Below are positions 1,957-14,358 of a DNA stretch of 64,000 nt, piece by piece. The notes beneath the pieces were generated by a model that was not told the DNA's origin, did no database searches, and saw nothing but the letters and a program-made list of their open reading frames with translations. Location: the IMG/VR virus record IMGVR_UViG_3300045995_000154; one strand, written 5' to 3'. The position numbers and the translations under genes are program-made. This DNA is from an uncultured virus (IMG/VR IMGVR_UViG_3300045995_000154) (Duplodnaviria > Heunggongvirae > Uroviricota > Caudoviricetes). The first letter of the stretch is position 1. Each line of letters opens with the position of its first letter.

Positions 1957-1970
1957 ATATTAAAATACAA

Positions 1971-2023
1971 CAGGATTCGCTTTGTTTTACATATGAAAGT
2001 ATAAAATTGCTGAAAGAATCCTA
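1971..2023 (-). ncRNA. CAGCAA-motif RNA (Y RNA-like family)
   Basis: AGGAUUC/GAAUCCU terminal helix followed by UUUCAGCAA. Confidence 0.6.
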
Positions 2024-2027
2024 AAAC

Positions 2028-2389: not shown

Positions 2390-2393
2390 ATAT

Positions 2394-2469
2394 TGGTCCA
2401 TCGCCTCGGAATCGAACCGAGTATCCTCCGGGTAAGAGCCGGTTGCTTCGCCACTAAAGCTTGCAATGG
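2394..2469 (-). tRNA. tRNA-Lys(CUU)
   Basis: Cloverleaf, CCA. Confidence 0.88.
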
Positions 2470-2839: not shown

Positions 2840-2910
2840 TGGTGCACCTAAGGAGAATCAAACTCCTCTACGTTCGGCTTCAAATCCGACTCGCAATATC
2901 AATCTAGCGC
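2840..2910 (-). tRNA. Degenerate tRNA, 8-nt anticodon loop AUUUGAAG
   Basis: T-arm and CCA present, D arm collapsed. Confidence 0.45.
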
Positions 2911-2915
2911 ATAAC

Positions 2916-2989
2916 TGGAGCGGGGTAGGAGAATCGAACTCCTCGCTTTAGCTTGGAAGGCTAAGGTATTACCACTATACGAACCCCGC
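2916..2989 (-). tRNA. tRNA-Gly(UCC)
   Basis: Cloverleaf, U73, CCA. Confidence 0.93.
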
Positions 2990-2996
2990 ATTTAAA

Positions 2997-3174
2997 TTGT
3001 TTTAAGGCTGACGTTTGTGCTTGCGTACAGGATTCGAACCTGCCCATCCGGGTTTAAAGCCCAGTATGCTATCCACTACATCAACGTAATCTCCTTACCA
3101 ACCATACTGCAATACTTATGGACAGGAGTCAAACTTCAGACTGCTTCAAATTGCAGTTATCAGCCTTAAAACAA
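2997..3174 (-). ncRNA. CUGCAA-motif RNA enclosing a tRNA-like domain with UUA anticodon
   Basis: 15-bp terminal helix UUGUUUUAAGGCUGA/UCAGCCUUAAAACAA; internal D, anticodon and T arms; no CCA. Confidence 0.65.
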
Positions 3175-3182
3175 CTAACTAA

Positions 3183-3352
3183 AATCATTACCAATAGCAC
3201 ACGGAATCGAACCGTAAAGTCTGTATTACTGACTGCGACCACGCCAAGCTCATGCATAAACCTTTATGCTATCTTGCTGTTACTGCCTGGGATTCCGAGC
3301 CCCAATGCGCCGAAGCCAGTCCCGTGAATGACTCAGTAACAACGGATAATGA
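3183..3352 (-). ncRNA. Structured RNA with T-arm
   Basis: UCAUUAUC/GGUAAUGA closing helix, ACGG-UUCGAUU-CCGU T-arm, internal ACAGCAA. Confidence 0.45.
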
Positions 3353-3359
3353 AAACTAA

Positions 3360-3717
3360 CAAATATGACCTGCCGCTACGTTTGGACTCTTACCACAGTT
3401 TTTCTCGAGGGTACAAGCCCCGACGCTGTTTATGGCCTTTTCAGGAACATCACTGCAAAGAGCACCGCGGAAGGATGATGCCCTACTGTTTACTTTTCGG
3501 TTAATTACTCCGACTAATTAGATGGGAATACGCGGCGCCTACTAGGAACTCAATGTTCCGTTCGACTTCTGTCCCCGGCAGCATCACCGCCGACACAATT
3601 TTTCATACCCTACTGGACCGACTTTGCTCATCGTTTGTCAATCGCGTCTGCTTGAACTACCAATGCACATTTGATTGAAGACCGCGGCGAACCCACGGCT
3701 CGGCACCCATCTACTAT
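3360..3717 (-). ncRNA. Large structured RNA, GOLLD/ROOL-type candidate
   Basis: ORF-free GC-richer block in a tRNA array with long-range helix UAGAUGGG/CCCAUCUA. Confidence 0.4.
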
Positions 3718-3739
3718 TGAAAAATGGTATCTTAGTATA

Positions 3740-4270
3740 CTATTTCTTTGCCCATCGTCGTTTTGCTGACTCGGACATTCTTTTTATTGTTTCCTCTGAT
3801 CTGGGCTTGCATTTGCGGCCCTTCATCGCTTCGGAAACTTTCCTCTTTTGTTCTTCAGATTTTGGTTTCTTAGCACCTCGACGCACTGCTTCACGCAGGG
3901 CCTCGGGGTAATTCTCCAACATTCTTTTCGACTGTTTTGCTTTATGCTCTTCTGATCTTGGTTTTTTAGGAATACCTAAATCATTTACATATCGCCAACC
4001 ACAGCCGCCGCCTAAAACTATGTTATACACATCAGTTCTTTGCAAGAACTCTGCGTTAACATAATGCCTTTCAGCTTCACGCATTGAGGCTTCGTCTTCG
4101 AAGTATTCCAAAATCGTTTTCGAAAAATTCTCTTTACCAGATTTTGCTATTGCTTGTCTGATTATTTTTCCACTGCCCATATAACCATCATTTAAGTTCT
4201 TGGTTTTATGGACGCCGACATAAATCATTCCGTTAGTAGTGTTCTTGATCTCGTACAAATAAAAATGCAT
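3740..4270 (-). CDS. GIY-YIG (Seg-like) homing endonuclease with NUMOD3 repeats
   Basis: YLYEIKN..NGMIYVGVH..YMGSG..YNI; repeated SEExKxKxSE; own TATAAATA promoter and AGGAGG RBS. Confidence 0.9.
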   Translation of the reverse strand: MHFYLYEIKNTTNGMIYVGVHKTKNLNDGYMGSGKIIRQAIAKSGKENFSKTILEYFEDEASMREAERHYVNAEFLQRTDVYNIVLGGGCGWRYVNDLGIPKKPRSEEHKAKQSKRMLENYPEALREAVRRGAKKPKSEEQKRKVSEAMKGRKCKPRSEETIKRMSESAKRRWAKK

Positions 4271-4304
4271 ATAGCCTCCTACTTTATTTATACAAAATGT
4301 GTCG

Positions 4305-4990
4305 CCATCTACTATCTTACTAACCTGTGTCTTAGTATTAGTCCCAGAGTATATTCACATGCACAGAGGACTGGGCTCCATGTGCTGCTACATGATTTGC
4401 AGGCCTGTTACAAAAGGTTCTCTAATGTCAGGTTCCTTTATCCGCTTATCCTAGTCCCGCTGGTGTCCGAAGGCCGTGCGCTAACCAAGATAAGTTTCAG
4501 CTAATCATATATAAACTCACTCGCATCTGCCTTTTTGAGCCGCGTGTTCTATCCCTTAGCTTCGGCCTAGGACCAATCAGGATGTGCACATGTACACTAG
4601 AGCTTATATATGATCACAATCACTAAAACGCTTGCCGGCGTAAACGACCCCGGGGCGCTGATCGACTGTAAATCATATTCAAACACATTATTTCCCCCGG
4701 GGCGTACCCCAGAGTTAAATCATCCCTGATACAAACTAATGTACTTGAATATGACCCCTTATGCTTCGCAGCATCTTCACGATGTAGCGGACTGTTAAAG
4801 CGTATTGCCACAAACTTGGGCTCAGCACTGTCATCAGCAAAGGGATATCATAACCATTAAATTTTTAAAGAACAAGTATTGTCTGTTAGGTAAGTTAGAT
4901 GGGAGATTTCCCTTACCCTGTTACTCTGTATCAGTCTACCCTAAAGTAGCATCAACCTGCGGCTCCCCGTGCACGAACAGACAAAAACTT
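4305..4990 (-). ncRNA. Series of helix-closed structured RNA modules
   Basis: Closing stems at about 4503/4615, 4672/4752 and 4880/4985; no credible ORF. Confidence 0.4.
4859..4874 (-). promoter_or_regulatory. rrn-type boxA antitermination element (weaker copy 4987-5001)
   Basis: TGTTCTTTAAAAATTT versus boxA consensus TGCTCTTTAACA. Confidence 0.55.
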
Positions 4991-5039
4991 TTTAACGAAC
5001 ATCTAGCAGCTAACTCGATCATTTACTGCTTAAGTACCT

Positions 5040-5250
5040 ATTGTACATTAAAGTTAATTTAGTGTCAAACACTTTGTTTCTATCCCTTAGCAAGCTTAGG
5101 ATTTCTTCACTTAGTGCTTTATCTAACTTAAGTCTTATTGTACATTAAAACCTATTAAGCGTCAACTTAGTTTGGCAATCTTTTTACTTACCGCCAACCA
5201 CCTCATCAACTTAAGTACCTATTGTACATTAAAACGTTTATTACGTCAAA
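5040..5250 (-). promoter_or_regulatory. Three tandem sigma70 promoters
   Basis: TTGACA/TTGACG-N17-TACAAT three times, each with TTTAATG before the -10. Confidence 0.8.
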
Positions 5251-5566
5251 TCCTGAAGCTTTCGCCACATCCACAACGATCTCGCTCGTTTGGGTTGTTG
5301 AAGCGGAATCCCTCATTCAATCCTTCACGTACATAGTCCACTTCCATGCCTTGTAAATAGGCACAGCTCTTAGGGTCAACGAACAGTTTGCAGTCCTTGC
5401 ATTCAATGCAAAGGTCTTCTGCTTGCGCTTCGTCTACGTACTCTAGCACGTATGCTAGTCCACTGCAACCTGTTGTCTTAACGCCAAGACGGATACCGGC
5501 ACCTTTACCACGCTTTGCGATAACTTGCTGTATCTTTCTAGCTGCTTTATCAGTCAGTGACAACAT
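5246..5566 (-). CDS. iscA: Iron-sulfur cluster assembly protein IscA
   Basis: GCSGLAY and CGCGESF motifs. Confidence 0.95.
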   Translation of the reverse strand: MLSLTDKAARKIQQVIAKRGKGAGIRLGVKTTGCSGLAYVLEYVDEAQAEDLCIECKDCKLFVDPKSCAYLQGMEVDYVREGLNEGFRFNNPNERDRCGCGESFRI

Positions 5567-5943
5567 GCTTTGCCTTGTAATCTGCAACCGCTGCCTTGAT
5601 AGCATCTTCTGCAAGAATAGAGCAATGGATCTTTACTGGTGGCAGAGCGAGTTCTTCTGCGATTGTACTGTTTTTCAGGGACGCGGCTTCGTCCAGTGTT
5701 TTTCCTTTGACCCATTCTGTCACTAATGATGACGATGCAATGGCTGATCCGCAACCGTAAGTCTTAAATCGTGCATCAGTGATGATGCCGTCTACCACTT
5801 TGATTTGTAGCTTCATTACATCGTCAACAACCGCAAGCTGGGGCACCAACCATCCCGGTCCCAACTTGCGCATCTCCTTTACCGAACGACCCTACGTTCC
5901 TCGGGTTTTCATAATGGTCAATCACAGCATTTGAATAAGCCAT
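5550..5943 (-). pseudogene. iscU: Fe-S scaffold IscU, frameshifted by a 7-nt insertion
   Basis: MAYSNAVIDHYENPRNVG..GAPACG in one frame; DVMKLQI..GCGSAIASSS..LPPVKIHCS in another. Confidence 0.85.
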
Positions 5944-6526
5944 AATAACCTCCTTTTAAAAATCTTATTACGTGCATAGGTTGATAGCTATCCCACTTAG
6001 CACGATTGTCTGCACCCTTGAGGAACTGAATATTTTTCTTGCTCCCCAATACTTCAGCCGGTAGTCCTAATTCATATCCCTGTTTGTAGGGGACGACATG
6101 GTCTACTTGCCAATCTGTTTTTCTTTTACCGCAAGTGGGGACATATTCTCCTGCTTGCTTCATTGCCTTAATCGTTCTATAAGTTGCCTTGCGTACCATT
6201 CCCTTATACACTGCTAACTCACTGTTAGCTGGTTTTTTAGGACGTCGATTATTAACTGCTCCGTCTCTATTGGGGTTATTGGTGAGCCACTTTTGACTCT
6301 GCTTTTCGTTTGGCAAACCCTTGTTCCATCCGTGCCCTTTTTTAAGGCCGTCATGGTTTTGTTTCTCTTTTTGCTCTGCTGTTAGCTTAACCCCTTTGTT
6401 CCAAGCTTTATTACCTGGACGATTAATAGGGTTTTTGCATGGCGCAGAGCAATAAAGCACATACCTGGGTTTAGTTTCAAACAGGTTGCCGCAAAACTTA
6501 CAAACAGACGATATTCCGTATTTCAT
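5918..6526 (-). CDS. HNH homing endonuclease with NUMOD-like repeats
   Basis: WNKG twice, QVDHVVP..NIQFL..DNRAK; start after TAAATA. Confidence 0.75.
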   Translation of the reverse strand: MKYGISSVCKFCGNLFETKPRYVLYCSAPCKNPINRPGNKAWNKGVKLTAEQKEKQNHDGLKKGHGWNKGLPNEKQSQKWLTNNPNRDGAVNNRRPKKPANSELAVYKGMVRKATYRTIKAMKQAGEYVPTCGKRKTDWQVDHVVPYKQGYELGLPAEVLGSKKNIQFLKGADNRAKWDSYQPMHVIRFLKGGYYGLFKCCD

Positions 6527-6819
6527 ACAGTATTTATGTTGGTGCGCCCGTTTGCGAGTTTTTCCTGGCTCTTGTGCATCAAAGCACCGTACTTCAATGT
6601 GAACATGAATGTGTCGTCTGTTGCTACAGTGAACACAGCCCATGCTTTGTTAACTTTTCCCCAGCGGTAGTCTCGTTCACGTTCGTAATTGAACGTGTAA
6701 AAATCCGCATCTAATTCTGTCTCCATTGCCCACATCAAGATATCGTCTACGAATTCTTGGCGGGCATACTTGTGCTCATCCCTGTGAAGGTGGACGGGCA
6801 TTTCGATTCTAACTTTCAT
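6523..6819 (-). CDS. Hypothetical protein
   Basis: ORF with AGGAG RBS. Confidence 0.6.
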   Translation of the reverse strand: MKVRIEMPVHLHRDEHKYARQEFVDDILMWAMETELDADFYTFNYERERDYRWGKVNKAWAVFTVATDDTFMFTLKYGALMHKSQEKLANGRTNINTV

Positions 6820-6889
6820 TTTCGCTCCTTTGTTTTTCAACAATGGGAAGCGGTGAAGTGTGGTAAATAAAACATTTTTGTTTCCTTAT

Positions 6890-7022
6890 TGGTGGAGCAT
6901 TCGGGAGTTGAACCCGTCTCTTGGAACCTTTTGTCACCCTTGCGGGTCTAGCTTGATGATAAATCTCTGCTTGGCTTCTATCAACGTTCAGGATAGATTT
7001 GAGCCGACCTACACTATGCCCC
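6890..7022 (-). ncRNA. tmRNA-like mini RNA (133 nt)
   Basis: GGGGCAU/AUGCUCC-ACCA with G3-U70; GACGGGUUCAACUCCCG T-arm; no D or anticodon arm. Confidence 0.65.
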
Positions 7023-7026
7023 GTAT

Positions 7027-7080
7027 TGGTGGTCGGCCCACAGAGTCATGACCTCTGAATGCGCCCGGGCAATGCCGACC
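7027..7080 (-). ncRNA. 54-nt T-armless tRNA-like RNA with CAU loop
   Basis: Perfect 7-bp acceptor + ACCA; CAGAG-GUCAUGA-CUCUG hairpin. Confidence 0.55.
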
Positions 7081-7086
7081 GTAAAA

Positions 7087-7173
7087 TGGCGGAGAATAAT
7101 GGAATCGAACCATCACCGCTTTCGCAGTGGGGACGCTTTCCAAGCGCCGTAACCCCCAGGGTACCTACTCTCC
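7087..7173 (-). tRNA. tRNA-Ser(GGA)
   Basis: Long variable arm, G73, CCA. Confidence 0.85.
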
Positions 7174-7277
7174 TAAATTTAATAAGCAGACTGAAATAAT
7201 ATGCTGGGTTCTTGCAACCCTTCTTCTGGCTTAGTGTTCCTCATATCATGCCCGTTTCAGTCAGGCTCTGCTTAACT

Positions 7278-7367
7278 TGGCGGGGCGTAATAGAATCGAA
7301 CTATCACCGGGTACTAGCCAGTGGGCGAGTTTTCAAGGCTCGTTAACTTCCAAAGTTCCTACACCCC
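7278..7367 (-). tRNA. tRNA-Ser(UGA)
   Basis: Long variable arm, G73, CCA. Confidence 0.88.
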
Positions 7368-7381
7368 ATATTCATATTTAT

Positions 7382-7468
7382 TGGCGGATCATAATAGAAT
7401 CGAACTATCACCGCTTTCGCAGTGGGTCGGTATTCGAAGCCGATTAACGCCCAGCGTACCTATGATCC
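7382..7468 (-). tRNA. tRNA-Ser(CGA)
   Basis: Long variable arm, G73, CCA. Confidence 0.88.
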
Positions 7469-8664
7469 ATAATCTTTATCTTTTTAAATCCTGCATTAGT
7501 TGGATTCCCTGCTGGCTTTGCATTTTCTGGACATAAGCTGCAAGCAGGAATTTCATATAGCAAGTCATCAATAAACTTTTTAATTTTGGCAATCTCCCAA
7601 TTTGGATTGCCGGGCTCGTAGCTACTAGCTACCGCCATTTGTTCTTTTGTTGCATCAACTGCAAACTGTGCACTAAATTCGCCAAATACTGCAACTGGGC
7701 CGCATTTCCAAAGTCTACCTCTGGCAAATTGATATGCTTGCCACTCAACTGAAGTAAAGCAGCAATTTGAATGTGCTACTCTTCCGTTGCCAGTTTGGAA
7801 TTTAACAGTTTGCCCCACTTGCGTAAGCATAGTGTCATAAAACTTATATGAATCCATTACTAGCAATGATACGCCATTAGCATCAGTGATTTTATATCCA
7901 TCCGAAATTGGTTTTGGTGGTGCAAAATTAAACAATGTAATACATTCGTCTTGAATGTATTGCGGTAAATTTTTAAACTCATCAGGTCTGTTACATGCTG
8001 GCCAATCGTTGGCTTTGATGGAGTTGTATTTTTCAATCCATGCTGTGTTGCTAACTGCTCCCCAGTTTTCATCGAATGAGAATAACTCCTTGCATTCATC
8101 TTGAATGGCTGATGGCAAACTCTTAAAGTCAGACCTAAAATTACATGTTGGCCAATCTGCTAGTTTAATTTGTTTGTATTTTATGTCCCACCGACTACCT
8201 ATTACTTCTGGTGTCAGGGATGCATGTACATCAGCAGCAAAATTTGCGCTGCTCTTTACATACGGTGCAATTAAAAATTGATCTATTCCAGTCTGCGCAT
8301 TTTGCATTACTTCATTGCTGTGTGCAGACATCCTAACTGACAATCTTGGGTTTTTAAGTCGCTCGTACAATTCTGGCCAACGCGAGAACTGTGTACCATT
8401 TGTTAATATTTCTACCTTTGATGTGGGCCATAGACCCATAACGCCGTCTACCCACAACAAAAAATCTGGATTAAGCATAGGCTCACCACCCAAAATTACT
8501 ATGTGTTTAATGTCGACAATGGCCGCCCACTTGGTATACTCGGCTGAATAATCAGCCCAGCGTTCGTGGCCCTTAAACGTAAAATTGTTAAACCTATTAC
8601 AGTCAGTGCAATTCAAATTACATACGTTTGTGATGTAAAAATCTGCAAACTCGATTTCAATCAT
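7444..8664 (-). CDS. Radical SAM protein with internal tandem repeat
   Basis: CNLNCTDC, LGGEP, TNG, C-terminal CSLCP. Confidence 0.9.
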   Translation of the reverse strand: MIEIEFADFYITNVCNLNCTDCNRFNNFTFKGHERWADYSAEYTKWAAIVDIKHIVILGGEPMLNPDFLLWVDGVMGLWPTSKVEILTNGTQFSRWPELYERLKNPRLSVRMSAHSNEVMQNAQTGIDQFLIAPYVKSSANFAADVHASLTPEVIGSRWDIKYKQIKLADWPTCNFRSDFKSLPSAIQDECKELFSFDENWGAVSNTAWIEKYNSIKANDWPACNRPDEFKNLPQYIQDECITLFNFAPPKPISDGYKITDANGVSLLVMDSYKFYDTMLTQVGQTVKFQTGNGRVAHSNCCFTSVEWQAYQFARGRLWKCGPVAVFGEFSAQFAVDATKEQMAVASSYEPGNPNWEIAKIKKFIDDLLYEIPACSLCPENAKPAGNPTNAGFKKIKIMDHRYAGR

Positions 8665-9309
8665 TTATTGATGTTTATATGTTTCTATATATTTTACCAC
8701 ATTGGTATCAAACCATTGTGGGTTTGCATGTAAGTAATCAATTGTTTTACTTAATGTCCACGGTGTTCTATAAGGGCGATTCGACATTAGTGCTTCCGCA
8801 ACGTCACATGCCGCCAATATACGTATATTATGCGGAATTTGTTCCGCTGTCAATTTAAGTGGATAACCCGACCCATCTAATCGCTCATGATGCATATATG
8901 CAAAATCTACTAATGGCCACGGTGATACTAAATTAGATAAAATAATTTTACCAATCGGCACATGCGTTTCCGCAATCATCCGCTCACCAGGAGTAAGTGG
9001 TCCAGCCTTAGAAATAACACTGTGGTGGACACCTATTTTGCCTATATCATGTATCAACGATCCAATTGTGACACCAATCATGTCATGGTATGATAACCCC
9101 ATCTTGGATGCAACATGCGTTGCAATTTCTTCTGCAGAACACAAGTGATCACCTGTATGCGAGTCGTATGCTTGCATCATTGTGACTAGAGTTTCAAAGT
9201 GAGAACATATTGTTTTCACTGTCATCTCATCAGGAGAATTACCCATGCTAGCCATGTAGTGCTGCAAAAACTCTTTACTTGCAAACATGGCTTTAGTATT
9301 AGGGTGCAT
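8665..9309 (-). CDS. HD-GYP cyclic-dinucleotide phosphodiesterase
   Basis: HDIGK, HHERLDGSGYP, CDVAEAL..RPYR; start set at ATG 9309 because the longer version overlaps tRNA-Val. Confidence 0.9.
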   Translation of the reverse strand: MHPNTKAMFASKEFLQHYMASMGNSPDEMTVKTICSHFETLVTMMQAYDSHTGDHLCSAEEIATHVASKMGLSYHDMIGVTIGSLIHDIGKIGVHHSVISKAGPLTPGERMIAETHVPIGKIILSNLVSPWPLVDFAYMHHERLDGSGYPLKLTAEQIPHNIRILAACDVAEALMSNRPYRTPWTLSKTIDYLHANPQWFDTNVVKYIETYKHQ

Positions 9310-9319
9310 ACTATATTTA

Positions 9320-9393
9320 TGGTATCCCGTAGCAGAATTGAACTGCTGTTTTAACCATGTCAAAGTTACGCTCTACCATTGAGCTAACGGGAC
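9320..9393 (-). tRNA. tRNA-Val(GAC)
   Basis: Cloverleaf, CCA. Confidence 0.88.
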
Positions 9394-9399
9394 AAATTT

Positions 9400-9476
9400 T
9401 GGCATACCGGGAAGGATTCGAACCTTCATCACGCAATTTTGGAGACTGCTGTTCTGCCAATTGGAACTACCGATAT
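9400..9476 (-). tRNA. tRNA-Trp(CCA)
   Basis: Cloverleaf, CCA end. Confidence 0.82.
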
Positions 9477-9482
9477 ATAATT

Positions 9483-9570
9483 TGGCGGGTGAGAGAGGAC
9501 TTGAACCTCCACGCCTTTTTCAAAACGTCAGTTTAGCAAACTGATGCGGCTACCATTTCGCCACTCACCC
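9483..9570 (-). tRNA. tRNA-Ser(GCU)
   Basis: Long variable arm, G73. Confidence 0.9.
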
Positions 9571-9674
9571 ATTAATCTTACTGTGAGGGCTAACCTCTCT
9601 AGCGCAAGTAGCACGTTCCGGTTTACGCCGGTTCGGTTGAGCAGGGTCCAGGTTGCTTGGGACTACTTATACTC

Positions 9675-9749
9675 TGGAGCCTTCAGCTAGAATCAAACTA
9701 GCGATTACTGATTACGAAACAGTCGTGTTATCACTAACACTATAAAGGC
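9675..9749 (-). tRNA. tRNA-Thr(CGU)
   Basis: Cloverleaf, CCA. Confidence 0.82.
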
Positions 9750-9918
9750 ATATTAAATTAGAAGGTTGGATTTACGGTTTCGACACCGCTGCACCAACTT
9801 GTAAGACCGTAAGGGGGTCTTTCGGTAATATTCGGCCCACGTCGTCCGTCCGATATTTACCTATACACTGATATACGACCTGTCTACCAGTTGCTGTTCT
9901 ACCAGCTGCTTCTAAACT

Positions 9919-9995
9919 TGGTGCACCCTCTCGGATTCGAACCGAGAACATTTAGTTTCTAAGACTAACCTGACTACCAATTGCAGCAAGGGTGC
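9919..9995 (-). tRNA. tRNA-Leu(UAG), short variable loop
   Basis: Cloverleaf, A73, 5-nt variable loop. Confidence 0.85.
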
Positions 9996-10095
9996 ATATT
10001 CTGTGCTAGTTTACTCCTTACTAGCAAGTCCTATAAGTCGACTCTGCATTTAAGCCTGCAGAGCTTACTATGCCTATAGCGTAGGCTTAAAATAA

Positions 10096-10395
10096 TCAAC
10101 ACTCCGTAGCCGGGATTCTGTTCTATGCTAACATTAATCTTTGCCACAACCCGCACCTATAAGCAAAAGGTTCCCAAGTGCTGTTTGTGTTGCACACTAT
10201 ATCACGGTAGTGTTAACGATAGCATTTTGTGGTGGAGTTTGCCAGGGGCTTTCACCTGGTTGCGGCCTGGAGCGCGAAGGCCCAGTTTCGTCCTATATGT
10301 TACGTGTTCAAACCCCATTACAAAATACTATCTCCTACTCGCCCTTTGCGTGTGTCCCGAACTTCCTGACTTGCGCCCGTTAGCTCGAATGTTGA
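10096..10395 (-). ncRNA. rnpB: Ribonuclease P RNA
   Basis: P1 UCAACAUUC/GAGUGUUGA, P2 GCUAAC/GUUAGC, CR-I AGGAAGUUCGGGA, CR-V AACAGAAUCCCGGCUAC forming P4. Confidence 0.85.
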
Positions 10396-10399
10396 AATT

Positions 10400-10520
10400 T
10401 GGTGCAGCCCCGTGGATTCGAACCACGACCTCGTCCTTGTATAATGGAATGATTGTAGTGCTGTATTGTATCCTTGTCAGGATCGCTTTCTACGCGAGCT
10501 AACCATTACTCTAAGGCTGC
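10400..10520 (-). ncRNA. tRNA-shaped RNA with anticodon arm replaced by an AUCCU/AGGAU..ACAGCA module
   Basis: Canonical acceptor, D and T arms, CCA; ~60-nt central insert. Confidence 0.7.
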
Positions 10521-10527
10521 ATTAAAT

Positions 10528-10602
10528 TGGCCGGTCCTAGAGGAATCGAACCTCTACCCACTGTTTCGAAGACAATGATGATATCCATTTCACTAAGGAC
10601 CG
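10528..10602 (-). tRNA. tRNA-Arg(UCG)
   Basis: Cloverleaf, CCA. Confidence 0.88.
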
Positions 10603-10607
10603 ATATT

Positions 10608-10683
10608 TGGTGGGTCGCACGGGAGTCGAACCCGCCTGGTACTGATTAAGAGTCAGCTGCATCTGCCGCTTTGCTAACAACCC
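10608..10683 (-). tRNA. tRNA-Lys(CUU)
   Basis: Cloverleaf, CCA. Confidence 0.88.
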
Positions 10684-10691
10684 AAATTGTG

Positions 10692-10768
10692 TGGTGCCCC
10701 TGGTCAGATTCGAACTGACATCCAAAACCTTTTAAGGATTCCCGCACTACCAATTAGCGTACAGGGGC
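10692..10768 (-). tRNA. tRNA-Leu(UAA), short variable loop
   Basis: Cloverleaf, A73. Confidence 0.85.
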
Positions 10769-10877
10769 GAAAATAATTTAGCTAGAACAATCGCCAGGAT
10801 ATGTTGACACATACCCCAGCAGGGATTCGAACCCCATACACGCCTGATGTTCTATATTTTACGTGAGCCAAAAATAA

Positions 10878-10982
10878 CAGGATGTGGCGTCTATAGACCG
10901 GGACTCGAACCCTTGACGCACCCCCAGCGGGCCGGCCTCGCGAAGTATGGAGCGAGTTTTGAGTTTTGCTGCAATCATCCTA
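10878..10982 (-). ncRNA. CAGCAA-motif RNA with T-arm
   Basis: AGGAUG/CAUCCU helix, UUGCAGCAA, GGG-UUCGAGU-CCC. Confidence 0.6.
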
Positions 10983-10985
10983 AAC

Positions 10986-11061
10986 TGGTACATCGGACTG
11001 GCTTCGAACCAGTGACACCTAACTTTTCAGGCTAGTGCTCTACCAACTGAGCTACCGATGC
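10986..11061 (-). tRNA. tRNA-Phe(GAA)
   Basis: Cloverleaf, CCA. Confidence 0.88.
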
Positions 11062-11070
11062 ATAATATAA

Positions 11071-11133
11071 CAGGATCAACTTTTTAGTTTTCGAACAAAG
11101 AAAATTTTATTAAGTTTTGCTGAACTGATCCTA
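11071..11133 (-). ncRNA. CAGCAA-motif RNA
   Basis: AGGAUCA/UGAUCCU helix, GUUCAGCAA. Confidence 0.6.
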
Positions 11134-11137
11134 AAAC

Positions 11138-11215
11138 TGGTACCCTAGGTCGGATTCGAACCGACACGATTCTCCTTTTGAGAGAGACGCCTCATACCAA
11201 TTGGGCTACTAGGGC
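11138..11215 (-). tRNA. tRNA-Leu(CAA), short variable loop
   Basis: Cloverleaf, A73. Confidence 0.85.
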
Positions 11216-11224
11216 ATAATAACT

Positions 11225-11300
11225 TGGTGCAACCTACAGGGATCGAACCTGTTTCATCGGCTTTTCAGACCGCTGCAATGACCACATTTGCTAAAGTTGC
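11225..11300 (-). tRNA. tRNA-Phe(GAA)
   Basis: Cloverleaf, CCA. Confidence 0.82.
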
Positions 11301-11312
11301 ATAATAAACTTA

Positions 11313-11385
11313 GGGGTGACCGATGGGAGTTGAACCCATACTACCAGAGTCACAGTCTAGGTTGCTACCGCTACAACACGGCCAC
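11313..11385 (-). tRNA. tRNA-His(GUG)
   Basis: Cloverleaf, C73; G-1 and terminal A not encoded. Confidence 0.85.
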
Positions 11386-11404
11386 ACCTAAGTTCACTAA
11401 AATT

Positions 11405-11478
11405 TGGCAGCCCGTGTAGGAATCGAACCTACGCTTACTGAGTCAGAGTCAGTTATTCTTCCATTAAACTAACAGGCA
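11405..11478 (-). tRNA. tRNA-Gln(CUG)
   Basis: Cloverleaf, G73, CCA. Confidence 0.85.
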
Positions 11479-11484
11479 ACAAAT

Positions 11485-11571
11485 TGGCTGAGGAAGTACG
11501 ACTTGAACGTACACGCCCTTTACAGACACTGATTTCAAAGACCAGCGTGGCTACCATTTCACCATTCCCCA
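11485..11571 (-). tRNA. tRNA with Gln anticodon (UUG) and long variable arm
   Basis: 87 nt, CUGGU-CUUUGAA-AUCAG, variable arm GUCU-GUAA-AGGGC, G73. Confidence 0.8.
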
Positions 11572-11612
11572 ATAAACTATAAATAATATACATACATCAT
11601 TAAGGTACGTAT

Positions 11613-11912
11613 ATGAAAAACTTTCTAGCTGCACTTTTACTCGTTCCCACTTTATCATTCGCTACGCTTGAGCATTTCAAGAAGGACGTAATCTGCGAAG
11701 ACGAGGACAAATTAATGGCCGAATTAACTGGTCCTGAGTATCAGGAAGAAGTTGTCATTATCGGCAAAGGATCAGTAAACGTGTTAATCATTACGCTCAA
11801 CAAAGAAACAGGATCTTACTCTGTATTAGAAGTTAACGATGGTAAATTGTGCGGGCTAAACGTAGGCGATAATTTTACCATTAATTGGAAGAAAATGCCT
11901 ACACAAAAATAA
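11613..11912 (+). CDS. Small exported protein (signal peptide)
   Basis: MKNFLAALLLVPTLSFA; TATAAATA at 11578 and AAGG RBS. Confidence 0.75.
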   Translation: MKNFLAALLLVPTLSFATLEHFKKDVICEDEDKLMAELTGPEYQEEVVIIGKGSVNVLIITLNKETGSYSVLEVNDGKLCGLNVGDNFTINWKKMPTQK

Positions 11913-11977
11913 CAGGAAGAGGTTGTCGACTAAGACACCAAAAGTTTAAGTCTGTATTGTTTGCAGAACTCTTCCTA
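11913..11977 (-). ncRNA. CUGCAA-motif RNA
   Basis: AGGAAGAG/CUCUUCCU helix, UUCUGCAA. Confidence 0.55.
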
Positions 11978-11981
11978 AAAC

Positions 11982-12236
11982 TGGCTTCGTCAACAAGACT
12001 CGAACTTGTGATGCGGGGTTAAAATCGCGTATGCTGGGTCCCCGTGTGTTTCCCAAAGTTACCCTCGTATCCCCTCAATGCCTTATCTCACTCTTCATGC
12101 ATTTCAACCTGTTCCGCACTTCCCGGACTCACAGTGTTTGGTTTTAAAGCCTACGCGATTGTTATCTACTTTGCACTACTAGCTGCCTTATCTCACCTAC
12201 TCAATACTACTCTACCTTCCTCTACACTATAACGAA
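11982..12236 (-). ncRNA. 255-nt RNA with tRNA-like termini and purine-rich interior
   Basis: UUCGUUA/UGACGAA-GCCA, T-arm ACAAG-UUCGAGU-CUUGU, 13-nt internal repeat. Confidence 0.6.
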
Positions 12237-12244
12237 ATAAAACT

Positions 12245-12319
12245 TGGTGCTCTCTGGCAGATTTGAACTGCCTTCTGTGGACTACAAAACCACTATTCTC
12301 CCGAGTGAACTAAGAGAGC
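12245..12319 (-). tRNA. tRNA-Thr(UGU)
   Basis: Cloverleaf, CCA. Confidence 0.82.
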
Positions 12320-12328
12320 ATAATATAA

Positions 12329-12446
12329 CAGGATGCCTTAATAGACGGCGTGAAGCCGTTGCTCTGCCATTAGAGCGTACTACGCGATGTGCGTGGTGTT
12401 GGAATCGAACCAACTGATCTAAAAGATCGTTGCTGCAAGCATCCTA
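12329..12446 (-). ncRNA. YrlA-like RNA (circularly permuted tRNA domain)
   Basis: AGGAUGC/GCAUCCU helix + UUGCAGCAA; order T-arm, loop-closed acceptor-like stem, D-arm. Confidence 0.7.
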
Positions 12447-12450
12447 AAAC

Positions 12451-12525
12451 TGGTACCTCCTGAGAGAATCGAACTCCCATCCCAACGTTCGTAGCGTTGT
12501 ACATTATCCATTATACGAAGGAGGC
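12451..12525 (-). tRNA. tRNA-Arg(ACG)
   Basis: Cloverleaf, CCA. Confidence 0.88.
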
Positions 12526-12531
12526 AAAAAC

Positions 12532-12605
12532 TGGTGGAGCTCTGGGGAATCGAACCCCAATGACTAACTTGCAAGGCTAGTATAATCCCATTATATGAGA
12601 ACCCC
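12532..12605 (-). tRNA. tRNA-Ala(UGC)
   Basis: G3-U70, CCA. Confidence 0.88.
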
Positions 12606-12613
12606 GATAAATT

Positions 12614-12688
12614 TGGTGGAGGCCGGGGGTATCGAACCCCTCTAGACATGATCATTGCAAGTGAACACCGCAGCCCTCTGCTGCCCCC
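12614..12688 (-). tRNA. Atypical tRNA-Ala(UGC)
   Basis: G3-U70, CCA, non-standard D arm. Confidence 0.65.
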
Positions 12689-12696
12689 ATTATAGG

Positions 12697-12849
12697 TTTT
12701 GAGAGACCAACTATCTTTCTTAAGGACTCGCTGGCTTGTCTCGAATTAAGAGAGTTTATACAACCTTGTACAATTCTACTGGTGTGTCATGCTCAAGAAA
12801 TAGGGCACTAGAATACAAGGGACTCAATCTCAATCGTCTATCTCAAATC
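12697..12849 (-). ncRNA. Rod-like structured RNA, ~150 nt
   Basis: UUUGAGA/UCUCAAA closing helix, internal CCUUGUA/UACAAGG and UUCUA/UAGAA. Confidence 0.45.
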
Positions 12850-12923
12850 TGGTGCTGAATGCGGGAATCGAACCCACGTAAGCTACGTACCAAGCAGCTA
12901 GGTTACCACTACATCAATTCAGC
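12850..12923 (-). tRNA. tRNA-Thr(GGU)
   Basis: Cloverleaf, CCA. Confidence 0.85.
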
Positions 12924-12930
12924 TTGTCTC

Positions 12931-13005
12931 TGGTGGTACTGATGAGAATCGAACTCATTTCTTGCAGCGTATGAAGCTGGTGCATTACCTTAATGCTACA
13001 GGACC
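12931..13005 (-). tRNA. tRNA-Met/Ile2(CAU)
   Basis: Cloverleaf, CCA. Confidence 0.82.
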
Positions 13006-13014
13006 ATAATAACT

Positions 13015-13086
13015 TGGAGCGGGTGACAGGGTTCGAACCTGCATCTTTCGGCTTGGAAGGCCAAACGTATTCCACAAACCACACGC
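13015..13086 (-). tRNA. tRNA-Gly(UCC), weak D arm
   Basis: Anticodon and T arms, U73, CCA. Confidence 0.65.
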
Positions 13087-13139
13087 ATATAAGAGAATTT
13101 TTGACTCATTTCTGACCGCCCTCTTTACATGGCATAAAT

Positions 13140-13218
13140 TGGCTCCGCATCTGGGACTCGAACCCAGCTATACATTGATTAACAGTCAAGTCCGTGCACC
13201 TGGCTCGGATTCTGCGGA
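13140..13218 (-). tRNA. tRNA-Asn(GUU)
   Basis: U1-A72, G73, CCA. Confidence 0.85.
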
Positions 13219-13225
13219 ATAAAAT

Positions 13226-13304
13226 TGGCTCCGTGTGTGAGGATCGAACTCACCTAATCATTGATTAACAGTCAAGTCCTTGCACCATGCTTGGATTTCA
13301 CGGA
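13226..13304 (-). tRNA. tRNA-Asn(GUU)
   Basis: U1-A72, G73, CCA. Confidence 0.85.
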
Positions 13305-13371
13305 ATAAAAGATGCCAGCCACGAGGGGACTGCTGGCGTTAGTCACCGTCTTAATACTGGTGACCAAAATT

Positions 13372-13459
13372 TGGTGGAACGTGTAGGATTCGAACCTACT
13401 ACCCTTGGAAGGGCGCGATGTTACAGACCGCTCTAGCACTCCAACTCTAGCGACGAACC
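13372..13459 (-). tRNA. tRNA-Tyr(GUA)
   Basis: Long variable arm, CCA. Confidence 0.75.
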
Positions 13460-13464
13460 AAATT

Positions 13465-13548
13465 TGGTGGAGACGTGTGGTTTCGATCCACTCCCATAAT
13501 GGGCGAGTTTTACAGACTCGCTGCTGAAGCCATCAGCTTTCCATCTCC
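13465..13548 (-). tRNA. tRNA-Tyr(GUA)
   Basis: Long variable arm, CCA. Confidence 0.78.
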
Positions 13549-13556
13549 AAAAATAG

Positions 13557-13617
13557 CAGGATAGTTTTTACGGTTTTGATTAAAAGTCAAATGTAATTGT
13601 TTGCTGAACCTATCCTA
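13557..13617 (-). ncRNA. CAGCAA-motif RNA carrying a tRNA-Lys(UUU) anticodon stem-loop
   Basis: AGGAUAG/CUAUCCU helix, GUUCAGCAA, UUUGA-CUUUUAA-UCAAA. Confidence 0.65.
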
Positions 13618-13621
13618 TAAC

Positions 13622-13696
13622 TGGCGCCGTAGACGAGACTCGAACTCGCCTGACTCACATCGACAGTGTGGTGCCCTCCCCGAGAGCTACTACGGC
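13622..13696 (-). tRNA. tRNA-Asp(GUC)
   Basis: Cloverleaf, G73. Confidence 0.82.
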
Positions 13697-13786
13697 ATAT
13701 AACTTGGCGGCACGAAACCAGCTGTGCACTTACGCTTCTTAGCTTCTCGTTCCTAGGAAACTTACGCTTGGGTCATCGCCCTAACT

Positions 13787-13860
13787 TGGTGTGAGATAAG
13801 GGAATCGAACCCTTGACTAAAAGTTGGCAACCTTTAATTTTACCATTAAACTAATCCCAC
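13787..13860 (-). tRNA. tRNA-Gly(GCC)
   Basis: Cloverleaf, CCA, atypical A73. Confidence 0.8.
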
Positions 13861-13868
13861 ATAAAAAC

Positions 13869-13942
13869 TGGTCAGGGTACAAGGAATCGAACCTTGGCCA
13901 CGACGCCCCAAACGTCGCATGATACCATTTCACCACACCCTG
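13869..13942 (-). tRNA. tRNA-Pro(UGG)
   Basis: Cloverleaf, C1-G72. Confidence 0.88.
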
Positions 13943-13951
13943 AAAATACAT

Positions 13952-14028
13952 TGGTCTGCGCTGAAGGATTCGAACCTTCGACCCCTCGGTTCCAGGCCGA
14001 GAACTCTACCAGACTGAGCTAAACACAG
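13952..14028 (-). tRNA. tRNA-Pro(UGG), loop CC-UGG-AA
   Basis: Cloverleaf, C1-G72, C33 and A37. Confidence 0.82.
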
Positions 14029-14038
14029 ATTAAAAACT

Positions 14039-14112
14039 TGGTACATCGTTGGAGAATTGAACTCCCATCAACGGTATGTAACACCGCTATTCTACCATTA
14101 AACTACCGATGC
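14039..14112 (-). tRNA. tRNA-Val(UAC)
   Basis: Cloverleaf, CCA. Confidence 0.82.
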
Positions 14113-14120
14113 AAACTAAC

Positions 14121-14195
14121 TGGAGTCGCGTACGGGGATCGAACCCGCCTGAACAGGTTGAAAGCCTGTGGACCTCACCAAAAGTCAAACGCGAC
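14121..14195 (-). tRNA. tRNA-Glu(UUC)
   Basis: Cloverleaf, CCA. Confidence 0.85.
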
Positions 14196-14202
14196 ATAAA
14201 CT

Positions 14203-14276
14203 TGGTACCCTGTCCAGGTAACGATCCTGGGTCTATCGGTTATCAGCCGATTGCTCTACCTTTGAGCTAACTGGGC
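14203..14276 (-). tRNA. tRNA-Ile(GAU)
   Basis: Cloverleaf, CCA. Confidence 0.88.
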
Positions 14277-14284
14277 ACTAAACT

Positions 14285-14358
14285 TGGTACGGGATGTAGG
14301 GATCGAACCTACGCTCTCAGAGTCAAAGTCTGATATGCTACCATTACATAAATCCCGA
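14285..14358 (-). tRNA. tRNA-Gln(UUG)
   Basis: Cloverleaf, CCA. Confidence 0.82.

What the first reader, a model, noticed from the sequence alone, without database searches (positions are those of the whole stretch)
12329..12446. YrlA-type circularly permuted tRNA mimic
Inside the handle the order is T-arm (GUUGG-UUCGAUU-CCAAC), loop-closed acceptor-like hairpin (ACCACGC..GCGUAGU), then D-arm (GCUCU-AAUGGC-AGAGC). T before D with a sealed acceptor end is the topology described for bacterial YrlA Y RNAs. This is the strongest tie between the family and Y RNAs.
Basis: partly seen in the sequence, partly recalled or inferred. Interest (0 to 1): 0.8.

Follow-up and report, generated by a model that had tools for sequence, protein, structure and literature searches.

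The report
Y-RNA-type tRNA mimic, non-Ro handle
A small RNA gene wedged between two tRNA genes of a freshwater giant phage carries the same scrambled-order tRNA look-alike as bacterial Y RNAs, but it sits in a different closing stem that recurs in many phage tRNA rows and resembles a slime-mould RNA class.

Summary
On the minus strand, 12446..12329 folds into a 10-bp closing stem. It encloses a small hairpin, a canonical T arm, a 7-bp loop-sealed acceptor-like hairpin, a D arm and one further hairpin (z -4.87).

Fourteen of 137 related phage elements have the same T then D order, with strong covariation. The T arm is identical to that of the published, Ro60-linked YrlA of Caulobacter phage CcrColossus. 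A sister element is 75% identical to that YrlA over 84 nt. So the tRNA-like head is YrlA-type.

It is not a YrlA family member:
- Rfam YrlA scores 15.3 bits against a threshold of 69.
- The GNCGAA motif is absent.
- No Ro60 gene was found in the window's ORFs of 100 aa or more, nor in the 10 related phage records searched, two of them complete.

The closing stem belongs to a phage family of tRNA-row spacer RNAs that I found described in no paper or Rfam family: AGGAU-nn..(U)UNCAGCAA..nn-AUCCUGU. There are six copies in this window and at least 137 distinct copies in viral contigs.

The only non-tRNA Rfam family that repeatedly matches it is Dictyostelium Class I RNA (21-37 bits, threshold 41.5).

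Function is inferred only: a tRNA-part mimic processed out of the tRNA transcript.

The parts
12446..12450 (-). Leader GUUUU between the CCA end of tRNA-Arg(ACG) (12451-12525) and the element. U12446 can pair with G12329.
   Evidence: The leader is GUUUU in 112 of 137 unique family members, partly forced by the search pattern. U.G pairs in 86 of 86 short forms.
12437..12445 (-). Handle, 5' strand AGGAUGCUU.
   Evidence: Fold. In 86 short relatives the two variable handle pairs are kept in 86 of 86, using four pair types each.
12430..12440 (-). Conserved single-stranded motif GCUUGCAGCAA; CAGCAA is 12435..12430.
   Evidence: CAGCAA occurs in 129 of 137 unique members, CUGCAA in 5 and CCGCAA in 3; positions 1 and 3-6 were forced by the pattern. 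The motif aligns to CUUACAGCAA of the Rfam Class I consensus. The target 11-mer has U, C, C, A, A at positions 3, 6, 9, 10, 11, as Kjellin 2021 reports for Class I RNAs.
12416..12428 (-). Hairpin V, GAUCU-UUU-AGAUC, before the T arm.
   Evidence: The orthologue in L109 reads GAUCA-UUUA-UGAUC, a U-A to A-U compensatory change.
12398..12414 (-). T arm GUUGG-UUCGAUU-CCAAC.
   Evidence: It is identical, apart from one loop base, in L097, L128, L095, L136 and the CcrColossus YrlA.
12379..12397 (-). Sealed acceptor-like hairpin ACCACGC-ACAUC-GCGUAGU: 7 positions with one A.C mismatch.
   Evidence: All 5 aligned pairs covary among 13 long forms. The A.C mismatch is kept in orthologue L109.
12361..12378 (-). 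Linker AC (tRNA positions 8-9) plus D arm GCUC-UAAUGGCA-GAGC with the GG of positions 18/19.
   Evidence: GG is invariant in 13 of 13 long forms. A8 and U14 replace the usual U8 and A14, and the same holds in L109.
12345..12359 (-). Post-D hairpin ACGGC-UUCAC-GCCGU, in the anticodon-arm position but with a 5-nt loop.
   Evidence: The orthologue in L109 has CGGC-CUUGAAA-GCCG with a 7-nt anticodon-type loop. L136 has AUGGG-CUCCAAG-CCCAU.
12329..12338 (-). Handle, 3' strand AAGGCAUCCU plus the invariant G.
12320..12328 (-). Trailer UUAUAUUAU up to the 5' end of tRNA-Thr(UGU) (12245-12319).
   Evidence: The trailer begins UU in nearly all members.
11067..11137 (-). Sister short-form handle element.
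   Evidence: Model R1, 68.9 bits.
13553..13621 (-). Sister short-form handle element. Its cargo is an anticodon-arm-like hairpin UUUGA-CUUUUAA-UCAAA.
   Evidence: R1, 66.0 bits. An RNA-library contig holds it with 2 differences and unlike flanks on both sides.
1967..2027 (-). Sister short-form handle element.
   Evidence: R1, 61.4 bits.
11909..11981 (-). Sister short-form handle element, the CUGCAA variant.
   Evidence: R1, 50.0 bits.
10874..10986 (-). Sister long handle element with a different G+C-rich cargo that includes a T-arm-like hairpin.
   Evidence: R1, 29.3 bits. Relatives are L067 and L103.

Best explanation
The element is a composite small RNA gene inside the phage's tRNA operon.

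Its outer part is a 'handle': a 7-10 bp terminal stem, the single-stranded motif (U)UNCAGCAA next to the 5' strand, an A-rich 3' side, and the ending CCUGU. This handle defines a phage-specific family of RNAs that sit directly behind tRNA 3' ends.

Its inner part in this copy, and in about a tenth of copies, is a tRNA-derived head in permuted order: hairpin V, T arm, 7-bp loop-sealed acceptor stem, two linker bases, D arm. That head shares ancestry with the tRNA-like domain of YrlA Y RNAs.

Inferred, not shown:
- It is transcribed with the flanking tRNAs.
- It is freed by the tRNA-processing nucleases: RNase P at the 5' end of tRNA-Thr, and RNase E or Z behind the CCA of tRNA-Arg.
- The T and D loops form a tRNA elbow.
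- It acts as a stable tRNA-part mimic, with the handle serving as the stabilising or partner-binding module. As a mimic it would be a decoy or docking site for factors that recognise the tRNA top half, such as RNase P, the CCA-adding enzyme, or tRNA-targeting host defence nucleases.
- It probably works without a phage Ro60.
For: Anatomy and fold: (z -4.87).

Position: 5 nt after a tRNA CCA end and 9 nt before the next tRNA, on the same strand as all 45 tRNAs.

Family:
- Six copies in the window, all on the tRNA strand and inside the tRNA row.
- 137 unique elements in viral contigs, 129 of them with CCA just upstream.
- Three to seven copies per phage record. They cluster within 13-16 kb in two complete genomes of 235 and 364 kb.
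- Handle pairs are kept in 86 of 86 short forms with four pair types, and G.U pairs occur only in the tRNA-sense strand.
- In cellular genomes the 5' motif hits look like chance: only 1 of 120 has the 3' complement.

Head:
- 14 of 137 elements have T then D.
- Covariation is strong.
- G18, G19, G53, U54, C56 and C61 are invariant, and U55 and A58 nearly invariant, in 13 long forms.
- Seven-bp (in two, eight-bp) sealed stems directly abut the T stem, and two linker bases precede the D arm, in most copies.
- Orthologue L109 keeps the odd features and shows a compensatory change in V.

Homology to YrlA:
- L128 is 75% identical over 84 nt to CcrColossus 108850-108937.
- That stretch lies within the YrlA published at 108824-108959, 368 nt from Ro60 gene gp139 (Chen 2014, Table S2; annotation).
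- The T arm and the D stem (GCUC/GAGC, with the loop GG) are shared with the target.

Precedent for processing: M. smegmatis YrlA, which has a 7-bp acceptor-like stem, is cut by RNase P and receives CCA (PMC4201824, passages read).
Against: - No RNA evidence for this element. The two metatranscriptome contig sets laid on the region give no cover over 12334-12464. Transcription, ends and stability are therefore inferred.
- No partner is known.
- The target's head is less tRNA-like than its sisters. It has an A.C mismatch in the sealed stem and A8/U14 instead of U8/A14. A15 faces A48, so there is no Levitt pair. The post-D hairpin has a 5-nt loop.
- The cargo inside the handle varies widely, which could mean the cargo is dispensable.
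- The decoy idea rests on analogy only.
Confidence: 0.6

Rival explanations
1. It is a true Y RNA. The element binds the host's Ro60 (Rsr) through its closing stem and tethers it to an exonuclease, as YrlA and Yrn1 do.
For: The head is homologous to a Ro60-linked phage YrlA. The modular plan is the same: a terminal stem with a single-stranded conserved motif on its 5' side plus a variable interior. Sister long forms reach 29-50 bits on RF02553.
Against: No GNCGAAN0-1G motif is present (the motif definition is from the passages). RF02553 scores 15.3 bits against 69. No TROVE gene was found in the window's ORFs of 100 aa or more. None was found in 10 phage records that either carry the family (9) or are nearest to the window (G001, which lacks the tRNA row), including 2 complete genomes. 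The control record with a GC-rich YrlA-like RNA does have TROVE within about 1 kb on the same strand. The host is unknown, so host Ro60 cannot be excluded.
Confidence: 0.12
2. It is only a processing or insulating spacer. The handle is a nuclease guide or folding insulator for the polycistronic tRNA precursor, and the tRNA-like interior is passenger sequence without a function of its own.
For: The element always lies between tRNAs, right behind CCA. Its flanks are AU-rich and conserved. The cargo is highly variable, and most copies carry only one weak AU hairpin.
Against: The CAGCAA motif and the terminal bases are nearly invariant across very different phage contigs, which a mere insulator does not need. 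The long-form head is under clear structural selection, with compensatory changes in all four helices and conserved elbow bases. Most tRNA junctions in the same row do without the element.
Confidence: 0.15
3. It is a working permuted (split) tRNA gene. RNase P opens the sealed acceptor loop and CCA is added. The resulting two-piece molecule, held together by the handle, is charged and decodes.
For: All cloverleaf parts are present in permuted order in some copies. L136 has a 7-bp acceptor stem, a D arm, an anticodon-type arm with CCA, and a T arm. L109 has a CUUGAAA loop. M. smegmatis YrlA is cleaved and receives CCA.
Against: The target's anticodon-position loop has 5 nt. The loop triplets differ between orthologues and sisters (UCA-like, UGA, CCA, GAA). 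The target has an A.C mismatch, A8/U14 and no Levitt pair. Six to ten extra bases and the handle lie where tRNA has one base or a short variable loop. No bulge-helix-bulge motif or RtcB ligase is present: RtcB is in 0 of 5 records.
Confidence: 0.06
4. It is evolutionary debris: a recombination scar of tRNA genes with no function.
For: The tRNA row contains several other aberrant tRNA-like genes and homing endonuclease genes.
Against: Pairing is kept through many compensatory changes. An orthologue in another phage contig keeps even the unusual bases. The element is not similar to any resident tRNA.
Confidence: 0.05

Closest known systems
YrlA, the tRNA-like Y RNA of bacteria and phages (Rfam RF02553; Chen et al. 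2014, PMC4201824), in particular the YrlA of Caulobacter phage CcrColossus
   Same: The order is V hairpin, T arm, loop-sealed acceptor-like stem, two linker bases, D arm, all closed by a terminal stem. The elbow bases are conserved. The T arm is identical to that of the CcrColossus YrlA, and sister element L128 is 75% identical to it over 84 nt.
   Different: The closing stem is short (10 bp), of a different sequence family, and lacks GNCGAAN0-1G. There is no Ro60 gene nearby or in related complete genomes. The element lies inside a tRNA operon directly behind a tRNA. It scores far below the Rfam threshold (15.3 against 69). The target has an extra post-D hairpin.
Dictyostelium Class I RNAs (Rfam RF01414; Kjellin et al. 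2021, PMC7919456; pattern in Mosig et al. 2006, PMC5054030)
   Same: This concerns the handle only. Both have a terminal stem joining the 5' and 3' ends whose sequence varies with compensatory changes. Both have a motif ..UU(A)CAGCAA directly after the 5' strand, with U, C, C, A, A at positions 3, 6, 9, 10, 11. Both have an A-rich 3' side and the ending CUGU. The common short forms are about 55-62 nt with low G+C. All 18 RF01414 matches listed in the loci of those two calls fall on handle elements. The best is 36.6 bits, and one alignment is shown.
   Different: All scores are below the gathering score of 41.5, and the target itself is not matched. The phage RNAs lie in tRNA operons rather than behind a DUSE promoter. 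The first five handle pairs are nearly fixed (AGGAU). The phage elements are viral or bacterial, not amoebal. No RRM protein is found in 5 phage records. Common descent is unproven.
Circularly permuted tRNA genes of the red alga Cyanidioschyzon merolae and some archaea (recalled, not read here)
   Same: The 3' half (T arm, acceptor 3' strand) lies upstream of the 5' half (acceptor 5' strand, D arm), joined by a short linker.
   Different: There is no bulge-helix-bulge motif at the termini, no conserved anticodon, and a non-canonical anticodon-position loop. No evidence for circularisation of this element was found.
Handle-less YrlA-type tRNA mimics in phage tRNA rows, noted earlier in this scan (e1-5785234, e1-5889490, e1-6093666; AI notes)
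   Same: They are permuted tRNA heads with a sealed acceptor, inside phage tRNA arrays, with no Ro60 gene.
   Different: Those were described as lacking any handle. Here the head is enclosed in a conserved, widespread handle of its own kind.

Membership tests
YrlA (RF02553) | T arm, then loop-closed acceptor-like stem, then D arm, inside a terminal stem | tested here: met
   Kept with covariation in 13 relatives.
YrlA (RF02553) | tRNA tertiary-interaction bases (G18 G19, U54 U55 C56, A58, C61; Levitt pair 15-48; U8-A14) | tested here: inconclusive
   The elbow bases are present, and invariant or nearly so in 13 of 13 long forms. The target has A15/A48 and A8/U14, read. Sisters L136, L129, L068, L172 and L144 have G15/C48 (alignment).
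YrlA (RF02553) | GNCGAAN0-1G motif near the 5' end (presumed Ro60 contact) | tested here: not met
   The 5' region reads UAGGAUGCUUGCAGCAACGAUC and contains no CGAA. The definition is from PMC4201824.
YrlA (RF02553) | Rfam gathering score of 69 bits | tested here: not met
   15.3 bits, E 0.69 in a 131-nt search. Sisters score 29-50 bits.
YrlA (RF02553) | Encoded within about 4 kb of a Ro60/TROVE gene on the same strand | tested here: not met
   No TROVE among 50 window ORFs of 100 aa or more scanned against Pfam. Zero of 10 phage records searched. The positive control G007 rings.
YrlA (RF02553) | Bound by Ro60/Rsr | not testable with these tools
   Needs immunoprecipitation or gel shift. The host is unknown.
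YrlA (RF02553) | Sequence similarity of the head to a published YrlA | tested here: met
   (CcrColossus, Table S2 of Chen 2014).
Dictyostelium Class I RNA (RF01414) | Short terminal stem joining the ends, with compensatory changes | tested here: met
   86 of 86 sequences are paired at the variable positions, with four pair types each.
Dictyostelium Class I RNA (RF01414) | 11-nt motif next to the 5' stem with U, C, C, A, A at positions 3, 6, 9, 10, 11 | tested here: met
   The target 11-mer is GCUUGCAGCAA. Family consensus; definition; D. discoideum pattern.
Dictyostelium Class I RNA (RF01414) | 3' end CUGU | tested here: met
   The genomic sequence reads ..AUCCUGUU in the target and in at least 90% of the 86 short forms. 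The mature 3' end is unknown.
Dictyostelium Class I RNA (RF01414) | Length 42-65 nt | tested here: not met
   The target is 118 nt. The common short forms are 50-66 nt.
Dictyostelium Class I RNA (RF01414) | Rfam gathering score of 41.5 bits | tested here: not met
   There is no match on the target. The window copy at 11071-11131 scores 13.4 bits. The best relative scores 36.6. Eleven of 20 sampled short forms match at E up to 10.
Dictyostelium Class I RNA (RF01414) | Own promoter (DUSE about 60 nt upstream), dictyostelid genome | tested here: not met
   The element starts 5 nt after a tRNA CCA in a tailed-phage genome.
Permuted tRNA gene | 3' half upstream of 5' half, with complementary acceptor strands | tested here: met
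Permuted tRNA gene | Canonical 7-nt anticodon loop and a conserved anticodon | tested here: not met
   The target loop is 5 nt. The loops differ among relatives.
Permuted tRNA gene | Bulge-helix-bulge at the joined termini, and a circular intermediate | tested here: inconclusive
   The handle is an uninterrupted helix, so no bulge-helix-bulge motif is seen. Circularisation could not be tested because no RNA contig covers the element.

The most novel reading that the evidence does not exclude
The handle is a phage counterpart of the Class I RNAs so far thought unique to dictyostelid amoebae. In phages this Class-I-type handle and the Y-RNA-type tRNA head are interchangeable modules of one RNA system. 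That would link two orphan RNA classes, Class I RNAs and bacterial Y RNAs. It would also point to a conserved partner that reads the terminal stem plus the UUNCAGCAA motif. The interiors present tRNA parts: an anticodon arm alone, D-anticodon-T, or T-acceptor-D. They would then serve as decoys against tRNA-targeting host defences.
Probability: 0.15. Interest if true: 0.9.

Novelty: new variant of a known kind. Interest (0 to 1): 0.72.

Why it matters
Bacterial Y RNAs have been defined by their link to Ro60. Here a head of clear YrlA type is maintained by selection in phages that have no Ro60 gene. It sits in a different closing stem and inside tRNA operons. This suggests the tRNA-like head has a job of its own.

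The handle family is abundant in freshwater phage tRNA rows and was not matched by any Rfam family at threshold. My seven literature searches found no description of it.

Its unexpected likeness to Dictyostelium Class I RNAs gives both fields a concrete test: does one kind of protein read 'stem + UUNCAGCAA + CUGU'?

If the interiors are tRNA-part decoys, they would be a new arm of the phage-host conflict over tRNAs.

Tried and rejected
- **Own assembly:** it is not held. The nearest record, G001, starts beyond the tRNA row and lacks the element.
- **Blastn of the region against cultured phages:** it found only tRNA-Ala matches. A short form gave only chance-level hits.
- **T..D pattern scan of viral contigs:** besides the same phage, it gave one GC-rich YrlA-like RNA (L060) and tandem tRNAs.
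- **Scan of cellular genomes with the 5' handle motif:** Only 1 has a 3' complement, and it looks like coding sequence, so these are chance hits.
- **RNA evidence:** two metatranscriptome contig sets give no cover over 12334-12464. This says nothing either way.
- **Protein partners:**
  - RRM proteins: 0 of 5 phage records.
  - RtcB: 0 of 5.
  - PHROGs and Pfam on ORFs in and beside the tRNA row gave homing endonucleases, radical-SAM, HD, Fe-S assembly, UvsY, SSB and other proteins, but no RNA-binding or RNA-repair candidate.
- **Integron attC-like or MITE readings of the handle:** rejected. The flanks do not fit the R'/R'' boxes, and G.U pairs occur only in the tRNA-sense strand.
- **Handle as a tRNA acceptor stem copied from a resident tRNA:** none of the 44 tRNAs compared starts with AGGAU.
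- **** was wasted because I set the E-value limit wrongly.
- **Earlier notes of this scan by place and by sequence:** nothing was found.

Full report
**Context**

The window is part of a large tailed phage. It has a T4-type large terminase, a tail sheath and a gp15-like sheath stabiliser. Its terminase is 51% identical to those of jumbo phages such as Pseudomonas phage PA5oct.

Positions 12-14358 carry a row of 44 tRNA genes called by ARAGORN, all on the minus strand and mostly with an encoded CCA. A 45th tRNA lies at 57181-57278. Rfam finds 38 tRNAs at threshold.

The phage's DNA occurs in river, wetland and pond metagenomes of at least seven studies. The window's own assembly is not held. 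The nearest record, G001, begins beyond the tRNA row.

**The observation**

The finding lies on the minus strand between tRNA-Arg(ACG) (12451-12525) and tRNA-Thr(UGU) (12245-12319). From the RNA reads as follows:

| Part | Sequence |
|---|---|
| upstream tRNA end | CCA |
| leader | GUUUU |
| handle, 5' strand | AGGAUGCUU |
| motif | GCAGCAAC |
| hairpin V | GAUCU-UUU-AGAUC |
| spacer | A |
| T arm | GUUGG-UUCGAUU-CCAAC |
| sealed acceptor-like hairpin | ACCACGC-ACAUC-GCGUAGU |
| linker | AC |
| D arm | GCUC-UAAUGGCA-GAGC |
| spacer | A |
| post-D hairpin | ACGGC-UUCAC-GCCGU |
| spacer | CUAUUA |
| handle, 3' strand | AGGCAUCCU-G |
| trailer | UUAUAUUAU |
| next gene | tRNA-Thr |

The MFE structure contains all these helices. 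It is far more stable than shuffles (z -4.87, 0 of 200).

It is not a tandem-tRNA junction, and it is not a recent copy of a resident tRNA.

**The handle is a family**

Six elements in the window share the handle. A covariance model built from relatives finds exactly these six, all on the tRNA strand within the row.

From those loci I extracted 137 distinct elements with a complementary 3' strand. Of these, 129 have CCA just upstream.

Most are 50-66 nt. They consist of the handle plus one weak hairpin that often looks like an anticodon arm: 44 of 91 have a 7-nt loop, commonly CUUUUAA, CUGUUAA, CUUGUAA or CUUCUAA.

In 86 aligned short forms the two variable handle positions pair in 86 of 86 sequences, with four pair types each. 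CAGCAA and the terminal AUCCUG are invariant or nearly so, although part of that was forced by the pattern.

G.U pairs occur in the tRNA-sense strand. The structure therefore acts in RNA.

Phage records hold 3-7 copies. In two complete genomes of 364 and 235 kb they cluster within 13-16 kb.

The same 5' motif in 120 cellular-genome loci lacks the 3' partner in 119. The family therefore looks phage-specific.

**The head**

Fourteen of the 137 elements have a T arm followed by a D arm. Thirteen long forms were aligned, target included. Two of them, L079 and L087, align poorly.

RNAalifold recovers the handle, T arm, sealed stem and D arm. The pair counts are 95.8% paired against 35-42% for slid partners. 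Thirteen of 21 pairs change on both sides. The covariation score is 0.493 against at most 0.098.

G18, G19, G53, U54, C56 and C61 are invariant, and U55 and A58 nearly so. The sealed stem is usually 7 bp. It abuts the T stem without a spacer and is followed by two bases and then the D stem, which is the tRNA geometry.

An orthologue in another contig (L109) keeps the target's unusual A.C mismatch, A8, C9 and U14. It also shows a compensatory change in hairpin V. Its post-D hairpin has a normal 7-nt anticodon-type loop, whereas the target has 5 nt.

**Relation to YrlA**

The Rfam YrlA consensus has this same topology, and Chen et al. 2014 describe V, T, AS and D arms.

A sister element (L128) matches Caulobacter phage CcrColossus at 108850-108937 with 75% identity over 84 nt. 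This lies 368 nt upstream of a TROVE-like gene. It also lies inside the YrlA that Chen et al. list for that phage at 108824-108959 (Table S2).

In a six-way alignment the T arm, the D stem and the GG of the D loop are shared by the target, four sisters and CcrColossus, while the sealed stem covaries. The head is therefore of YrlA type by descent or by very close convergence.

The defining features of the family are nevertheless not met:

- RF02553 gives 15.3 bits against a threshold of 69. That is less than the 27.9 bits of a junction between two ordinary tRNAs in the window, an artefact Chen et al. warn about.
- GNCGAAN0-1G is absent.
- No TROVE gene was found among the 50 window ORFs of 100 aa or more that were scanned. 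None was found in G001 or in nine further records that carry the family, two of them complete.
- The control worked: a GC-rich YrlA-like element found by my pattern scan (L060) has a 550-aa TROVE ORF within about 1 kb on the same strand.

**Relation to Class I RNAs**

In permissive Rfam searches, the one family that is neither tRNA-related nor tRNA-like (the recurring YrlA, Plastid-ycf2 and tmRNA matches fall on tRNA sequence) and that repeatedly hits the handle elements is Dicty_Class_I_RNA (RF01414). It gives 3 hits and 15.

All 18 hits lie on handle elements. Some of these copies were not selected by my pattern and have compensated variants of the first pairs, AGGUU../..AACCU and AGAAU../..AUUCU. 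Eleven of 20 sampled short forms match at E up to 10, with bits of 21.7-36.6. All are below the threshold of 41.5.

The alignment sets GGAUUC-UUU-CAGCAAU...GAAUCC-UG against the consensus GaUcuC-CUUACAGCAAU...GagAuC-UG.

Mosig et al. give the D. discoideum pattern GTTGRCCTTACAGCAA...GTCAACTG. Kjellin et al. describe a 6-bp terminal stem with compensatory changes, an unstructured 11-nt motif with conserved positions 3, 6, 9, 10 and 11, the ending CUGU, a length of about 60 nt and 32-41% G+C. They conclude that the class is unique to Dictyostelia.

The phage handle shares each of these sequence and structure traits. It has neither the promoter nor the taxon, and it does not reach the score threshold. 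I treat this as a strong resemblance of unknown cause, not as membership.

**Mechanism**

Shown: the anatomy, the family, the selection on structure, the position in the tRNA operon, and the kinship of the head with YrlA.

Inferred:
- Co-transcription with the tRNAs.
- Release by the tRNA-processing nucleases.
- A T/D elbow.
- A role as a stable mimic of tRNA parts, with the handle as the constant stabilising or partner-binding module.

Three observations fit a 'one adaptor, many tRNA-part cargoes' reading:
- Different copies enclose an anticodon-type arm alone, a D-anticodon-T set in normal order (L124), or the permuted T-acceptor-D head.
- Three earlier notes described handle-less YrlA-type heads in phage tRNA rows without Ro60. 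Those are leads, not evidence.

A decoy role against tRNA-cleaving host defences is my own conjecture. It rests on recalled literature about phage tRNAs and anticodon nucleases.

**Limits**

- No RNA data cover the element.
Distinct sequences are not independent lineages.
- Supplement file 5 of Chen et al. could not be searched.
- Papers were read as passages, not in full.

Noticed in passing
window 11982-12241 (minus strand): This stretch has the highest depth in the two RNA-library contig sets (34 and 45-57). It is about 260 nt and ends in a T arm, an acceptor 3' strand and CCA. Its 5' part can pair with that acceptor strand. ARAGORN and Rfam call nothing there. One RNA-library contig, 90-95% alike, joins 11982 back to 12241. 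This is either a circular RNA or a tandem copy in a relative. The fold is no more stable than shuffles (z 0.41)..
   Followed up: partly
window 13089-13371 (minus strand): Two adjacent tRNA-like genes were missed by ARAGORN and Rfam. Each has an anticodon arm UUGA-CUGUUAA-UCAA (GUU), a good T arm (13237-13253 and 13151-13167), a CCA end and an unusual long D region.
   Followed up: no
window 12606-12849 and 10300-10527 (minus strand): Both hold a tRNA 3' half (T arm, acceptor strand, CCA) preceded by long inserts. They may be intron-bearing or split tRNA-like genes. There are weak permuted-tmRNA matches at 12467-12559 and 12594-12641.
   Followed up: no
window 3017-3091 (minus strand): A tRNA with anticodon UUA, which would read the stop codon UAA, as called by ARAGORN.
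   Followed up: no
window 10874-10986; L067, L103: A second long cargo type inside the same handle. It has G+C-rich hairpins plus a T-arm-like GGGUUCGAGUCCC and is conserved in at least two other contigs.
   Followed up: no
L124 (handle element listed): The handle encloses a D arm, an anticodon arm (UCU) and a T arm in normal tRNA order, without an acceptor stem of its own. The handle takes the place of the acceptor stem.
   Followed up: no
L153 193-241 (minus strand): A UUACAGCAA-bearing hairpin closed by AGACC/GGUCU sits directly before a T arm, as if in the variable-arm position of a tRNA.
   Followed up: no
window 1348-9363: Protein genes are interspersed in the tRNA row: DUF559/HNH-like and GIY-YIG homing endonucleases, IscA-like and NifU-like Fe-S assembly proteins, a radical-SAM protein and an HD-domain protein.
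   Followed up: partly
L060 2968-3090 and G007:78945-79847: A G+C-rich YrlA-like RNA lies next to a 550-aa TROVE ORF in an unrelated viral contig. It scores only 32-34 bits on RF02553.
   Followed up: partly
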